This document shows, piece after piece, positions 9,399 to 46,561 of a stretch of 58,419 nucleotides of DNA. A program made the position numbers and the translations under genes. Within the stretch, counting starts at the first letter, position 1. Each line of letters opens with the position of its first letter. The notes beneath the pieces were generated by a model. That model saw only the letters and a program-made list of their open reading frames with translations, was not told the origin of the DNA and made no database searches. Source of the DNA: Candidatus Micrarchaeota archaeon (GTDB lineage Archaea; Micrarchaeota; Micrarchaeia; Norongarragalinales; Norongarragalinaceae); NCBI GenBank assembly GCA_964630975.1, contig CAZVVY010000003.1, positions 58,379 to 116,797 on the forward strand, read 5' to 3'.

Positions 9399-10316
9399 TC
9401 AACCTTTTACTCCCGCCATTATCAACGGAAACGCAATCGTCGCATCACATTGCACGCACGCCGTACGCGCCTTTTCCTTCACTTTTCCCCAGGACACGGC
9501 TTCATTGACGCGCGCCCCGCTCAAAGAACCGTCGAACGGGGTCGCAGTGGTAACGTAGACCGCGTAATCGAATCCGCCGCGCAACAAGTTGGCCCCGATT
9601 GAAAAGTGTTTTGCCGCGCCGCCACCCAACAAAATGCCTCCCGTCTTTTCTGCGGACAACACGACGGGGGCAAGTTGCTTCAAGTCGCCCGACGCATCCA
9701 CGCCGAACTCGGGGTGCTCCTGCGAATAAAAAAACATTTGGAGGCCGAACGCCCCGTCGCAAGGCGAAGGACACGCCACAGGAATCTCGTTTTTCGCGGC
9801 CCAGTAAAGAAAAGAGTTTTCGTCTTCGATTGTCAAGCCGAGGTCGCGAATCAACTCGTTGGGTGCGAGCAACCGCCCCAACTCTTTTTGCTTGGCGAGT
9901 TCCGCGTCGAAGAAGGGCTTGAGGCGCGCCTCCAAACCCTCGTAATGCGCGTTCTTCACGAGCACGTCGCCTATGCGATTCGTTCCCTCGGCGTGCAAGG
10001 CGGCGTCGTCCCCGTTAAACGAGCCGAACTCGAAGTCGCCGAAGCACTTCATGTAATCCTCTTCAACGGACCCTATACCCGTAACCACTACGTCCACGAA
10101 TTTTTCGCGGCACAACCGCGCGAACAGCCCGCGCAACCCCGAAGAAACCATGTTGGAAGTGAACGACAAGAACACGGTTGCGCCGGCCTCCTTCATCTCC
10201 TCGATTACTTCCACGGCCTTGGCGAGCTCGCGCGCCTGAAAACCCGTGCCCTTCATTCTTCGCGCGAGTTCGGCCGCGGAAACGCCTTTTTCAACGTTCA
10301 AATCCTCAACCTTCAC
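9399..10316 (-). CDS. dys: Deoxyhypusine synthase
   Basis: TGFQA, FTSNMVSSGLR, GGGAAKH, and DGSLSGA...EAVSWGK carrying the catalytic Lys. Confidence 0.95.
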   Translation of the reverse strand: MKVEDLNVEKGVSAAELARRMKGTGFQARELAKAVEVIEEMKEAGATVFLSFTSNMVSSGLRGLFARLCREKFVDVVVTGIGSVEEDYMKCFGDFEFGSFNGDDAALHAEGTNRIGDVLVKNAHYEGLEARLKPFFDAELAKQKELGRLLAPNELIRDLGLTIEDENSFLYWAAKNEIPVACPSPCDGAFGLQMFFYSQEHPEFGVDASGDLKQLAPVVLSAEKTGGILLGGGAAKHFSIGANLLRGGFDYAVYVTTATPFDGSLSGARVNEAVSWGKVKEKARTACVQCDATIAFPLIMAGVKG

Positions 10317-39646: not shown

Positions 39647-41212
39647 ATGAAGGAGTTAATTACCGCCGCACTGCCTTACGCGAATGGAACCCTGCACCTC
39701 GGGCACTTGATGAGCACTTACTTGCCCGCCGACGTTTACGCGCGCTACTGCCGCCTTCGCGGCCGCGAAACCGCTTTCGTGTGCGCCACGGACGAGCACG
39801 GAACGGCAATCGAGATTAACGCGCAAAAAGCCGGGAAGAGCCCGAAAGAATTCGTTGCCGAACACCACGAGCAACAACTCAAGGACTTCGAGTCGGCACT
39901 CATAAAATTCGACGAATTCCACCACACGGATTCGCCGGAAAACCACGAGCTCTCCAAGGAATTCCACGAAAAACTATCCGAACACTTCTACGAAAAACAA
40001 GTCACGCAAACGTATTGCCCGAAATGCGCACGCGTCCTCCCCGACCGATACGTCAAGGGAAAGTGCCCCAACTGCGGCGCCGAAAGACAATACGGCGACG
40101 GATGCGAAAAATGCGGGAAAACTTATTCGACCTCCGACTTAATCGCTCCCGAATGCTCGGTTTGCGGCTCCACGCCCGAGCCGCGCTCCAGCAAACACTT
40201 GTTCTTCCGCCTAACATCCTTTAAGGAGTTCTTAACCGAATGGCTGCAAAAAGACGGCCTCCAAAAAGACGTGGTCAACTACGTCAAGAACTGGCTCCCG
40301 GGCTTGCAGGACTGGGACGTCACGCGCGACGGCCCTTATTTCGGCGTGCCGATTCCCGGCCGCGAAAACCAATACTTTTACGTGTGGTTCGACGCGCCCA
40401 TCGGCTACGTTTCCTCCACCAAACACTTGTTCAACGGCCTCGGCGACTGGTGGAACGGCGGAGCCCGCATAACCCACTTCATCGGAAAAGACATCATTTA
40501 CCACCACTACTTGTTTTGGCCCGCAATGCTGAAAGGCGCGGGATTCGCGTTGCCCGCCCGCATTCCCACGCGCGGCCACTTGAACATGGCGTCAGGAGAA
40601 AAAATGAGCAAAAGCCGCGGCACCCTCGTAACCATCCGCGAAGCAATCCGAAAAACGAACCCCGAATACCTCCGCTACTACTTGACTGCAATCACGCCGA
40701 GCTCCACCGCCGACATCGCGTTTTCGTGGGACGAGTTGAAAGTAAAAGCGAACAACGAGTTAATCGACGCGTACGGCAACCTCGTATACCGCGTGTTATC
40801 CTTTGCTTACTCCAAGACGGACGGCGTACCCCAAAAAAGCGTTGAAAGCCCGGAGGACGAGGAATTCGAACCCAAAATCGCGGCGTTCCTCGAAAAAGCC
40901 GGCGAATACTACGACGAAGTCGAGTTAAAGCGCGCCCTCGAATACTGCCTGCAATTCGCAGGCGAATGCAACAAGTACTTCAACGACCGCGCGCCCTGGA
41001 AACTCTTAAAGGAAAACCCGAAAGAAGCGAAAACCGTTCTCCACAACTCGTGTCGCGCGGTTTACGCGTTAAGCGTTGCTTTAAGCCCGGTCCTACCCAA
41101 TTCAACGAAAAAAGTGTTCGAGTGCCTCGAAGAAGAAGCGAAGTGGGAGGACTGCTTGGCGGCACGCGAAATCAAGAAGCCGGAAGTGCTCTACCAAAAA
41201 ATCGAGGATTAA
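39647..41212 (+). CDS. metG: Methionyl-tRNA synthetase (short form, no C-terminal tRNA-binding domain)
   Basis: ALPYANG.LHLGH, four CxxC knuckles, YVWFDAPIGY, KMSKS. Confidence 0.97.
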   Translation: MKELITAALPYANGTLHLGHLMSTYLPADVYARYCRLRGRETAFVCATDEHGTAIEINAQKAGKSPKEFVAEHHEQQLKDFESALIKFDEFHHTDSPENHELSKEFHEKLSEHFYEKQVTQTYCPKCARVLPDRYVKGKCPNCGAERQYGDGCEKCGKTYSTSDLIAPECSVCGSTPEPRSSKHLFFRLTSFKEFLTEWLQKDGLQKDVVNYVKNWLPGLQDWDVTRDGPYFGVPIPGRENQYFYVWFDAPIGYVSSTKHLFNGLGDWWNGGARITHFIGKDIIYHHYLFWPAMLKGAGFALPARIPTRGHLNMASGEKMSKSRGTLVTIREAIRKTNPEYLRYYLTAITPSSTADIAFSWDELKVKANNELIDAYGNLVYRVLSFAYSKTDGVPQKSVESPEDEEFEPKIAAFLEKAGEYYDEVELKRALEYCLQFAGECNKYFNDRAPWKLLKENPKEAKTVLHNSCRAVYALSVALSPVLPNSTKKVFECLEEEAKWEDCLAAREIKKPEVLYQKIED

Positions 41213-41565
41213 ATTCGAGGCCAATTCAATTTATTGGCTTCCCTCAACAAAAGCTTGTACAACCCGTCCTCGAACTCGAGCCGCCCATTCAAACGCTCTG
41301 AATCCGCGCGATCACCGCTTTTTTCGGCTAACCGCTTCGCAGACCCCGCGCGCCTCACCACTTCTTTATTAAAGGAATTCCTCGACGAAAAATGTTGGGG
41401 GTCCAGCGAAGAAACCACGCGTTCAACGAACCGCCTCTCCGAAGGTGAAGTAAACGAATAATTGCCGACCGCGTTCAACAACGATTTGCGGCGCGCCCCC
41501 AGTTCTTCGGCGCAACCCCTCTCTTCGAGTTGGCGCCTTACTTCCTCGATTTGCTCTTCCGGCAT
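41209..41565 (-). CDS. Hypothetical protein
   Basis: Start reassigned to ATG 41565 because the longer ORF overlaps tRNA-Glu. Confidence 0.5.
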   Translation of the reverse strand: MPEEQIEEVRRQLEERGCAEELGARRKSLLNAVGNYSFTSPSERRFVERVVSSLDPQHFSSRNSFNKEVVRRAGSAKRLAEKSGDRADSERLNGRLEFEDGLYKLLLREANKLNWPRI

Positions 41566-41598
41566 AAACCAATAAGTAAGCCGAGTAAAATAAAAGTA

Positions 41599-41724
41599 TG
41601 CTCCGACCGGGAGTTTCACGAGCAAAGCGAGTGAAATGCCTTAAAGCAACGCGCTTTGCCCAATTTGAACCCGGGTCGCTGGCTTGAAAGGCCAGTGTCC
41701 TTGACCGAACTAGACGATCGGAGC
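41599..41724 (-). tRNA. tRNA-Glu(TTC) with a 51-nt intron at 59/60 (intron 41613-41663)
   Basis: Acceptor GCTCCGA/TCGGAGC; anticodon arm CTGGC-CT TTC AA-GCCAG; T arm restored on splicing; full BHB (TTCA/TGAA helix, AAT and ACT bulges). CCA not encoded. Confidence 0.93.
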
Positions 41725-41754
41725 AAACAAGCGTTATTCTAGGGTTGCAAGCGT

Positions 41755-42381
41755 TTAAATGATTTTTCTTTGCTGCAAACGCGAAAAGATTTCGTCGTGC
41801 AACTCGTTCTTGTCGCGCAACTCGCCGTTTTCGGCGCAGTCCACCACTATCCAAGAGTCGTCGGCGAGCTCCAAATACGTTTTGCGGACGGCTTGCTGGT
41901 ACGCCAAATTTTTTTCGTGGTCGTCTTTTTCGCCGCGCTCCTCCAACAATTTGGCGCTGACCACGGGGTCGAGGTTGAGGAACACCACGCAAGCCGGCTG
42001 GGGCAACACGGATTCCACGAATAAAAGCCAGTTGGCGAACTCCTTCCTCTTCTCGGGAGTGGGAAGCTTGGCCGCCTGGTAAGCCGCGTTGGAGTGAATG
42101 TACCTGTCGCAAACCACGACGCTCTTGCGCTTGGATTCCTCCAAATCCCCCTTTTTTTGGAGGCGGTCTATCGAGTAAAGCAAGGCGGCTTGGTGAGGCG
42201 AAATGCCTTCAAATTCGCCGGCGAGGTAGCGCTTGATTAGCGCGCCGTAAGACGACTCGTACACGGGGAACTCGAATTTTTTCACGGCGTGCCCTTCCTT
42301 CTTGAGGCGTTCAACCAAAAGGTCGCACTGCGTCTGCTTACCGGAGCCGTCGGTTCCCTCAAACGAAATCAATGCAGGCAT
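41755..42381 (-). CDS. tmk: Thymidylate kinase
   Basis: FEGTDGSGKQTQ, F.FP.Y, CDRY..SN.AYQ. Confidence 0.95.
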   Translation of the reverse strand: MPALISFEGTDGSGKQTQCDLLVERLKKEGHAVKKFEFPVYESSYGALIKRYLAGEFEGISPHQAALLYSIDRLQKKGDLEESKRKSVVVCDRYIHSNAAYQAAKLPTPEKRKEFANWLLFVESVLPQPACVVFLNLDPVVSAKLLEERGEKDDHEKNLAYQQAVRKTYLELADDSWIVVDCAENGELRDKNELHDEIFSRLQQRKII

Positions 42382-43439: not shown

Positions 43440-43596
43440 TGCCGGAGGCGGGATTCTCACTGCCTTTCTTTTTCGTCGACGTTTTTCTTTCGCGAAAGAA
43501 AAAGGTCGGTTTGAACCCGCGACTTCCAGATTTCCCGAGCACCTAATTCGGTTCGCGTATGAGTCTGGCGCTCTAACCAGTCTGAGCTACTCCGGC
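43440..43596 (-). tRNA. Elongator tRNA-Met(CAT) with two introns: 37/38 (43532-43557, 26 nt) and 59/60 (43454-43509, 56 nt)
   Basis: Acceptor GCCGGAG/CTCCGGC; anticodon stem CCAGA/TCTGG; spliced T arm GCGGG-TTCAAAT-CCCGC; second intron has a TTCA/TGAG helix with AAC and AAT bulges. Confidence 0.9.
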
Positions 43597-46272: not shown

Positions 46273-46561
46273 CGGGCGGGCGGGTCGTAGTCCACCTTTT
46301 GTTGTCCACGGCATTGGACTGAGCGGCTCAAAGGCCTTGCACTCCATCGCCGGGCGCGAAGCCGTTTCAGCCCCGGAAACCCGGAACGTCCCCCTCAACG
46401 GGTTCACCCTGTTTTACGGGAAGGGTATCGTTTCTGCTCCCCGCGCCTGCGCCCTAAACGCTTTCACTCGCGTGAACGGCTCAAACGGAGTGGGTGGAAC
46501 TTCCCCATCGCCCCCGCGTTTGACCGCGAAGGCAACGACGGCCGTGCACCCGCGCCGCCCG
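46273..46561 (-). ncRNA. rnpB: RNase P RNA
   Basis: P4 pseudoknot halves GGAAGT(T)CCACC and AAAAGGTGGACT with bulged U; P1 CGGGCGG-GCGGGT/ACCCGC-CCGCCCG; P2 CACGGC/GCCGTG; internal AGAAAC, TGAAACGG and GTGCAAG motifs. Confidence 0.88.

What the first reader, a model, noticed from the sequence alone, without database searches (positions are those of the whole stretch)
41599..41724. tRNA-Glu with an intron at the same 59/60 position
Seen: a 51-nt intron with a textbook BHB (GGG/CCC, TTCA/TGAA, AAT and ACT bulges, 11-bp inner helix). Both tRNAs in the window carry a 59/60 intron using the T-loop TTCA as the central helix, yet the intron bodies are dissimilar. Inference: lineage-wide spread of T-loop introns by intron transposition. 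Because archaeal integrases often target tRNA 3' halves, these introns might also block viral integration.
Basis: partly seen in the sequence, partly recalled or inferred. Interest (0 to 1): 0.58.

Follow-up and report, generated by a model that had tools for sequence, protein, structure and literature searches.

The report
Recently acquired T-loop intron in tRNA-Glu
The only glutamate (UUC) tRNA gene found in this tiny DPANN archaeon is split by a real, spliceable 51-base intron in its T-loop; the type is known from this group, but this copy arrived recently and its relatives sit at the same spot in three other tRNAs elsewhere.

Summary
tRNA-Glu(UUC) lies on the minus strand at 41599-41724. 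Its 51-nt intron (41613-41663) sits between positions 59 and 60 and forms a strict helix-bulge-helix-bulge-helix motif.

Removing the intron gives a cloverleaf identical to the intron-less tRNA-Glu of a relative. The genome encodes an ARMAN-2-type (epsilon2) splicing endonuclease and the ligase RtcB.

T-loop introns are common here. I found them in 17 of 43 tRNA genes in this genome, 9 in a fully surveyed relative of another genus, at least 8 in a partly surveyed congener, and 1-2 in a genome of another family.

The Glu intron looks like a recent gain:
- About 27 tRNA-Glu loci of relatives (UUC and CUC) lack it, including the syntenic gene of the congener, which carries a 37/38 intron instead.
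- Close homologues sit at 59/60 of tRNA-Leu(CAG), tRNA-Ala(CGC) and tRNA-Ile(UAU) in other genomes or metagenomes.

Spread by intron transposition is therefore supported. The idea that these introns block virus integration was already published and could not be tested here.

Known background: 59/60 introns and their endonuclease (ARMAN-2), and intron transposition (Thermoproteales). Earlier reports of this scan described the main "triplex-type" intron family on other DNA. The Glu intron does not belong to that family.

The parts
41599..41724 (-). tRNA-Glu(UUC) gene, the only UUC copy found in the assembly; 126 nt with the intron, 75 nt mature, no encoded CCA
41664..41724 (-). Exon 1 (tRNA positions 1-59), 61 nt
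41613..41663 (-). 51-nt BHB intron at 59/60: three arms plus a TTTCAC linker; not a member of the pyrimidine/purine 'triplex-type' family
41599..41612 (-). Exon 2 (positions 60-73), 14 nt
41666..41669 (-). T-loop TTCA: 5' strand of the 4-bp central helix; pairs with 41615-41618
41615..41618 (-). Intron TGAA: 3' strand of the central helix
41652..41662 (-). Inner helix, 5' strand (11 nt); pairs with 41619-41629
41619..41629 (-). Inner helix, 3' strand
41754..41759 (-). TATA-like TTTAAA about 30 nt upstream of the tRNA; same spacing as upstream of tRNA-Met and many other tRNA genes of the genome
   Evidence: sequence reading; function inferred
41587..41595 (-). T-rich trailer (two T4 runs) directly after the discriminator; probable terminator
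   Evidence: inferred
43440..43596 (-). tRNA-Met(CAU, elongator type) with two introns: 37/38 (43532-43557, 26 nt) and 59/60 (43454-43509, 56 nt). The T-loop intron belongs to the common repeat family and is 50/56 identical to the T-loop intron of tRNA-Leu(UAG) on another contig

Best explanation
This is a functional tRNA-Glu(UUC) gene interrupted by a genuine archaeal splicing-endonuclease (BHB) intron in the T-loop.

Proposed mechanism:
- In the precursor, the 5-bp T-stem, a 4-bp helix between T-loop nucleotides 54-57 and the intron's 3'-proximal TGAA, two 3-nt bulges and an 11-bp intron helix together form a strict hBHBh' motif.
- This geometry copies an anticodon arm carrying a canonical intron: a 5-bp stem with the intron after the sixth loop nucleotide.
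- The genome's epsilon2-type endonuclease cuts in both bulges, and RtcB joins the 61-nt and 14-nt exons.

The intron itself is a recently arrived copy of a small, mobile intron lineage. That lineage occupies the same 59/60 site in different tRNAs of related Micrarchaeia. It is one of several intron families that have spread through T-loops in this family of the order Norongarragalinales.

Shown: the anatomy, the enzymes, absence from the tRNA-Glu genes of relatives, and homologues in other tRNAs.

Inferred: splicing in vivo, and the transfer mechanism. The most likely mechanism is DNA-level copying between tRNA genes, using the near-universal T-arm flanks as microhomology.
For: Anatomy and product. 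All 20 motif pairs form, and in four homologous copies 98.8% of pair cells are paired, against at most 52.5% when partners are slid.

The spliced sequence is identical to the intron-less tRNA-Glu of G013. No second Glu(UUC) gene was found in the genome.

The endonuclease (L031:901-2046, 382 aa) aligns end to end with ARMAN-2 EndA, PDB 4fz2, at E = 5e-125. The catalytic Tyr/His/Lys and the specificity-loop GTYK lysine are conserved (residues as named in PMC3488258). The ARMAN-2 enzyme cuts a 59/60 intron in vitro (PMC3239211). RtcB is present.

Recent gain: none of about 27 tRNA-Glu loci of relatives (UUC and CUC) has a 59/60 intron. The congener G001's gene is syntenic on both flanks but has a 37/38 intron instead.

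Mobility:
- A 43/51-identical intron (z = 24 against shuffles) sits at 59/60 of tRNA-Leu(CAG) in G006. This was the only clear hit among 68 genomes of the order.
- Two more copies sit at 59/60 of tRNA-Ala(CGC) and tRNA-Ile(UAU) on metagenome contigs.
- G001's tRNA-Val(GAC) T-loop intron shares the 5' half.

Genome-wide context.
Against: - There are no RNA data, so splicing is inferred.
- The nearest-neighbour minimum-energy fold predicts the T-stem and the 11-bp helix but leaves the 4-bp central helix open.
- The genome is 89.6% complete, so a second, intron-less tRNA-Glu(UUC) cannot be excluded.
- The two metagenome copies were found with an exact 22-nt probe from the intron's 3' end, so conservation of that part follows from how they were found.
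- The transfer mechanism is not shown. No reverse transcriptase or integrase was found in this genome.
- The direction of transfer is unknown.
Confidence: 0.85

Rival explanations
1. The intron is ancient in tRNA-Glu(UUC) and was lost in all sampled relatives. Similar introns in other tRNAs would then reflect convergence on the motif, not transfer.
For: Part of the similarity (TGAA, the bulges, the T-arm flanks) is forced by the motif and by conserved tRNA sequence. One T-loop intron, in tRNA-Ala(UGC), does seem old: it is present in G000, G001 and G030.
Against: It is absent from about 27 tRNA-Glu loci across 11 families, including the syntenic congener gene. Identity of 43/51 extends over arms that the motif does not constrain, with z = 24. 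Only one of 68 genomes of the order holds a clear homologue, and it lies in a different tRNA.
Confidence: 0.05
2. The insert disables the gene (a pseudogene or an assembly artefact), and glutamate GAA decoding depends on an unassembled copy.
For: The genome is 89.6% complete. ARAGORN and Rfam do not call the gene as it stands.
Against: The motif is strict, and the exons are identical to a relative's intact tRNA. TATA-like box and T-run spacing match other tRNA genes. Sixteen other tRNAs use the same arrangement, many of them the only copy found. A matching endonuclease is present.
Confidence: 0.04
3. T-loop introns are kept because they break the attachment sites of integrating elements that target tRNA 3' halves (Randau and Soll hypothesis).
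For: Tyrosine integrases occur in 33 of 68 genomes of the order. Where I looked they sit next to tRNA genes: Leu(CAA) and Leu(UAA) in G006, Asn twice, Phe and Val(GAC). None of these six has a T-loop intron. Three relatives show duplicated tRNA-Glu 3' ends downstream of genes that lack a 59/60 intron. This intron-rich genome shows no integrase and no 3' fragment.
Against: With 2-40% of tRNAs carrying T-loop introns, 0 of 6 is close to the chance expectation. No attachment core was mapped. Rapid turnover of introns between tRNAs fits neutral or selfish spread equally well. Five of the six tRNA types next to integrases also lack T-loop introns here.
Confidence: 0.15
4. The intron encodes a functional small RNA, for example a C/D-box guide as in the Haloferax tRNA-Trp intron.
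For: The intron is well structured, and its arms are conserved among four copies.
Against: No Rfam family matches the intron even at E <= 1. No C or D box is visible in the sequence. The middle arm varies freely between copies.
Confidence: 0.05

Closest known systems
[quoted passage not shown]
   Same: Same class (Micrarchaeia), same intron position, and an orthologous three-unit endonuclease with the specificity-loop lysine. A high share of tRNA genes is disrupted: 56% in ARMAN-2 against 26 of 43 here.
   Different: The ARMAN-2 test substrate is a 13-nt relaxed (hBH) intron, whereas this one is a 51-nt strict hBHBh' intron. Those papers do not report intron families shared between tRNAs or the turnover between congeners seen here. 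This genome belongs to a different order, Norongarragalinales.
[quoted passage not shown] 2010, as summarised in PMC4033280 and PMC3239211)
   Same: Related intron sequences recur in different tRNA species, and non-canonical introns are gained recently and often.
   Different: Different phylum and a different endonuclease type: (alpha-beta)2 there, epsilon2 here. Here the spread is concentrated on one site, 59/60. For the Glu intron, the related copies lie in other genomes rather than in the same genome.
'Triplex-type' hairpin repeat that fills tRNA introns of DPANN archaea
   Same: It fills 14-15 of the 17 T-loop introns of this genome, including that of the neighbouring tRNA-Met. It also sits in the 37/38 intron of the congener's tRNA-Glu and in tRNA trailers.
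   Different: The Glu intron lacks the pyrimidine tract and the mirror-image purine tract. Its third arm is an ordinary Watson-Crick complement of the first, giving rival hairpins rather than a triplex code.
Intron or split-gene protection against integration (Randau and Soll 2008, via PMC4090602)
   Different: It was proposed mainly for anticodon-region introns and split genes of Sulfolobus and Nanoarchaeum. It remains untested for T-loop introns.

Membership tests
Archaeal BHB (hBHBh') tRNA intron | 4-bp central helix flanked by two 3-nt bulges on opposite strands | tested here: met
   TTCA/TGAA with bulges AA|T and AC|T
Archaeal BHB (hBHBh') tRNA intron | Outer helices on both sides of the bulges | tested here: met
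   5-bp T-stem and 11-bp intron helix; both appear in the minimum-energy fold
Archaeal BHB (hBHBh') tRNA intron | Cutting between bulge nucleotides 2 and 3 yields exons that form a canonical cloverleaf | tested here: met
   ARAGORN calls tRNA-Glu(UUC) after excision; the product is identical to the intron-less orthologue in G013
Archaeal BHB (hBHBh') tRNA intron | Genome encodes a splicing endonuclease able to act at non-canonical sites, and an RtcB ligase | tested here: met
   enzyme properties from PMC3239211 and PMC3488258
Archaeal BHB (hBHBh') tRNA intron | Intron is actually removed from the transcript | not testable with these tools
   No RNA data available
Transposed tRNA intron family (sensu Fujishima 2010) | Clearly similar intron sequences in different tRNA species | tested here: met
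   Across genomes: Leu(CAG) in G006, plus Ala(CGC) and Ile(UAU) on metagenome contigs. Within this genome the Glu intron has no paralogue (best z = 3.2)
Transposed tRNA intron family (sensu Fujishima 2010) | Intron absent from the orthologous tRNA of close relatives | tested here: met
Triplex-type repeat introns (scan-internal family) | Pyrimidine tract, its complement, and a mirror-image purine tract | tested here: not met
   No such tracts in 41613-41663. Arm 3 is a direct complement of arm 1. There is no significant similarity to family members
Anti-integration device | Intron interrupts a sequence used as an attachment site by integrases of the lineage | tested here: inconclusive
   Integrases sit next to tRNAs in relatives, but no attachment core was mapped. 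There is no integrase and no tRNA 3' fragment in this genome

The most novel reading that the evidence does not exclude
The Glu-type intron may be a self-contained, protein-less mobile element that homes specifically to T-loop position 59/60. It has three arms and an internal T-loop-like TTTCAC that can pair with its own splice-site strand. It has moved between at least four tRNA identities and between genomes, possibly horizontally. The near-palindromic, universally conserved T-loop would serve as its landing site. If so, this would be a concrete, experimentally tractable route by which archaeal tRNA genes gain introns.
Probability: 0.15. Interest if true: 0.75.

Novelty: new member of a known kind. 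Interest (0 to 1): 0.42.

Why it matters
How archaeal tRNA genes gain introns is unresolved. Transposition has been inferred for Thermoproteales, while a recent census found no such signal in Asgard archaea (bioRxiv 10.64898/2026.10.13.758758).

This locus gives an unusually clean natural experiment. One orthologous, syntenic tRNA-Glu gene occurs in three states: intron-less in one relative, with a 37/38 intron in the congener, and with an unrelated 59/60 intron here. Meanwhile the same 59/60 intron sits in three other tRNAs elsewhere. That supports intron copying between tRNA genes in a second archaeal lineage with a different endonuclease type. It also identifies position 59/60 as the preferred landing site.

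In practice, default tRNA finders miss 40-60% of the tRNA genes of such genomes.

Tried and rejected
- ARAGORN default and the Rfam gathering threshold found no tRNA in the window. I therefore wrote a SPLITS-like scan that lists BHB candidates, excises them and re-runs ARAGORN at rising thresholds.
- Two of that scan's candidates (C4:75850-76130 and C1:104300-104650) read as protein-coding sequence and were dropped.
- A 91-nt 'tRNA-Phe' call on C2 was left out as doubtful.
- Trp, initiator Met, Gln(UUG) and Arg(UCG) tRNAs were not found.
- Weak BLAST hits of the intron in G044, G007 and G046 are coding sequence or unclear.
- Exact-pattern hits in bacterial and methanogen genomes, and in five of seven metagenome contigs, are unrelated contexts. 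One of those contigs carries a SAM-II riboswitch.
- The idea that the intron starts with a relic of the old 3' exon was considered and dropped, because the same 5' motif also occurs in tRNA trailers.
- A search for attachment repeats around the two integrase-adjacent tRNA-Leu genes of G006 found only other tRNA-Leu genes.
- The surveys of G001 and G030 covered only loci that the Rfam tRNA model detects, so their counts are lower bounds.

Full report
**What is there.** The window is G000:C3:58379-116797 of a 735-kb, 18-contig archaeal assembly that is 89.6% complete. A relative in the same family is titled Candidatus Norongarragalinales archaeon. That order belongs to class Micrarchaeia, the DPANN group.

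On the minus strand, 41724-41599 reads as tRNA-Glu(UUC) with a 51-nt insert between T-loop positions 59 and 60:
- Exon 1: 41724-41664.
- Intron: 41663-41613.
- Exon 2: 41612-41599.

These are the T-stem, the TTCA/TGAA central helix, the AA|T and AC|T bulges, and an 11-bp inner helix with two G.U pairs. The bulges lie 3' of the central helix on each strand, which is the canonical arrangement. Cutting between bulge nucleotides 2 and 3 leaves the T-loop intact.

ARAGORN and Rfam miss the gene as it stands. After excision ARAGORN calls tRNA-Glu(UUC). The precursor folds far better than shuffles (z = -4.6). The T-stem and the 11-bp helix appear in the minimum-energy structure, while the 4-bp helix between the bulges is left open by the energy model.

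A TATA-like TTTAAA about 30 nt upstream and a T-rich trailer match the layout of other tRNA genes in the genome.

**The machinery is present.** One 382-aa protein (L031:901-2046) carries two endonuclease domains. It aligns over its full length with the ARMAN-2 epsilon2 endonuclease, PDB 4fz2, at E = 5e-125. The catalytic Tyr/His/Lys and the lysine of the specificity loop, as defined in PMC3488258, are conserved in that alignment.

The ARMAN-2 enzyme cuts a 59/60 intron in vitro (PMC3239211). RtcB lies just upstream of the window.

**Genome-wide count.** Using a scan of my own (BHB enumeration, excision, ARAGORN at rising thresholds) I curated 43 tRNA genes:
- 17 have no intron.
- 9 have introns only in the anticodon loop or elsewhere.
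- 17 have a 59/60 intron: Met, Glu(UUC), Ile(UAU), four Leu, four Arg, His, Tyr, two Lys, Ala(UGC) and Ser(GGA).

All 17 junctions fall after the sixth T-loop nucleotide, and all use T-loop nucleotides 54-57 as the central helix.

Fourteen of the 17 T-loop introns have a clear paralogue in a different tRNA (z >= 8), against 5 of 15 anticodon-loop introns. For example, the T-loop intron of the window's tRNA-Met is 50/56 identical to that of tRNA-Leu(UAG) on another contig.

Most of these introns belong to the pyrimidine-tract/hairpin/purine-tract repeat that earlier reports of this scan call 'triplex-type'. The same hairpin also follows many tRNA genes as a trailer.

**The Glu intron is different, and recent.** It has no paralogue in its own genome (best z = 3.2) and lacks the tracts of the common family.

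I read about 27 tRNA-Glu loci (UUC and CUC isoacceptors) in relatives from 11 families, and none has a 59/60 intron. Several are intron-less, and the one in G013 is identical to the spliced product here. Others have 37/38 introns.

The congener G001's gene is syntenic on both flanks (73-79% nucleotide identity) but carries a 37/38 intron and no T-loop intron. The first 47 nt of that 37/38 intron's core match the T-loop intron of this genome's tRNA-Leu(UAG) at 46 positions (read). So one repeat serves both sites.

Among 68 genomes of the order, only G006 holds a clear homologue of the Glu intron. It lies at 59/60 of tRNA-Leu(CAG), with 43/51 identity and z = 24.

An exact 22-nt probe then found two further copies on metagenome contigs, at 59/60 of tRNA-Ala(CGC) and of a three-intron tRNA-Ile(UAU). 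Their 3' conservation follows from the way they were found, but their 5' arms were not selected and also match.

Across the four copies, 98.8% of motif pair cells are paired, against at most 52.5% when partners are slid. The T-stem pairs change on both sides with the host tRNA, and two inner-helix changes turn a G.U into A-U and a U.G into C-G. G001's tRNA-Val(GAC) T-loop intron shares the 5' half.

**How far the expansion reaches.**
- G006 (another genus, whole genome fetched): 9 T-loop introns, all with a 4-bp central helix and a 5-bp T-stem. They sit in a set of tRNAs that only partly overlaps this genome's set.
- G001 (the congener): a partial survey gave at least 8. Four of them (Ile(GAU), Ala(GGC), Val(GAC), Gly(GCC)) are in tRNAs that have no T-loop intron here.
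- G030 (another family): only Ala(UGC) is clear, plus one unclear case.

The expansion is thus strong in this family and turns over within a genus. Ala(UGC) may be an old, shared case.

**Mechanism of spread (inferred).** The four hosts of the Glu-type intron share 9 nt on the 5' side and 4 nt on the 3' side of the insertion point. These belong to the most conserved part of any tRNA. No reverse transcriptase or tyrosine integrase was found in this genome. Copying at the DNA level between tRNA genes, with the T-arm as microhomology, is the simplest reading, but it is not shown.

In three relatives, duplicated tRNA-Glu 3' ends lie about 70-80 nt downstream of the gene. In G018 the spacer holds a copy of the common repeat. 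This could be a trace of integration or an intermediate of intron birth; I did not resolve which.

**Integration hypothesis.** It is already published (PMC3488258).
- This genome has no integrase and no duplicated tRNA 3' fragment. It has only 5' stumps of tRNA-Ser and tRNA-Gly.
- Integrases occur in 33 of 68 genomes of the order.
- In the eight integrase loci I inspected, six lie next to a tRNA: Leu(CAA) and Leu(UAA) in G006, Asn twice, Phe and Val(GAC). None of the six has a T-loop intron.
- Given the base rates, that count is not informative, and no attachment core could be mapped.

**Verdict.** This is a real and well-formed T-loop intron, of a kind already known from Micrarchaeia. The value added here is the evidence that this copy is a recent arrival from a small intron lineage that hops between tRNAs at one site.

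The literature search found no description of intron families or turnover in Micrarchaeia. That search covers only open-access papers.

Noticed in passing
window 43440-43596 (-): tRNA-Met(CAU) has a relaxed 37/38 intron (one A-C mismatch in the central helix). Its T-loop intron has an inner helix that opens after one pair. This suggests that the endonuclease's broad specificity is actually used here.
   Followed up: partly
window 46276-46558 (-): Archaeal RNase P RNA (Rfam RF00373, 103 bits). It lies 2.7 kb from the two intron-bearing tRNA genes, and RtcB lies just upstream of the window (C3:56948-58240).
   Followed up: no
G000 tRNA trailers, e.g. after Arg(CCG) C1:50454, Val(CAC) C3:8578, Glu(CUC) C14:9582: The pyrimidine-tract hairpin that fills most introns also sits directly after many tRNA genes, where a terminator would be. 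The T5 runs inside introns might therefore attenuate transcription.
   Followed up: no
L007 (G001:C18, about 10003-10135): The congener's syntenic tRNA-Glu(UUC) carries a 37/38 intron. Its core matches this genome's tRNA-Leu(UAG) T-loop intron at 46 of 47 positions, so the same element is used at two different tRNA sites.
   Followed up: partly
L030 (G018), L017 (G039), L015 (G017), downstream of tRNA-Glu: Direct repeats of the tRNA 3' end (20 nt starting in the T-loop; 36 nt; a diverged T-arm copy) lie about 70-80 nt downstream of genes that lack a T-loop intron. They could be integration scars or intermediates of intron birth.
   Followed up: partly
G006:C1:432611-433108 and 568632-569135; L141-L144: Tyrosine integrase genes lie within about 0.5 kb of tRNA genes: Leu(CAA), Leu(UAA), Asn twice, Phe and Val(GAC). 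None of these six tRNAs has a T-loop intron.
   Followed up: partly
G000 C12:8578-8749; C9:17743-17773; C5:57414-57494: tRNA-Ile(UAU) is present, as in ARMAN-2, with two introns. tRNA-Ile(GAU) has a 31-nt intron in the acceptor stem after nucleotide 3. tRNA-Asn has two introns 7 nt apart.
   Followed up: no
G006 C1 (Asp near 142770, Val(CAC) near 425000) and L114 (G001 Val(GAC)): A third T-loop intron family shares a 3' half. G001's Val(GAC) intron combines that half with the 5' half of the Glu-type intron, which suggests modular recombination between intron families.
   Followed up: partly
window 41209-41566 (-): A small ORF of about 119 aa starts 33 nt downstream of tRNA-Glu. This stretch is the only part of the locus that does not align with the congener.
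   Followed up: no
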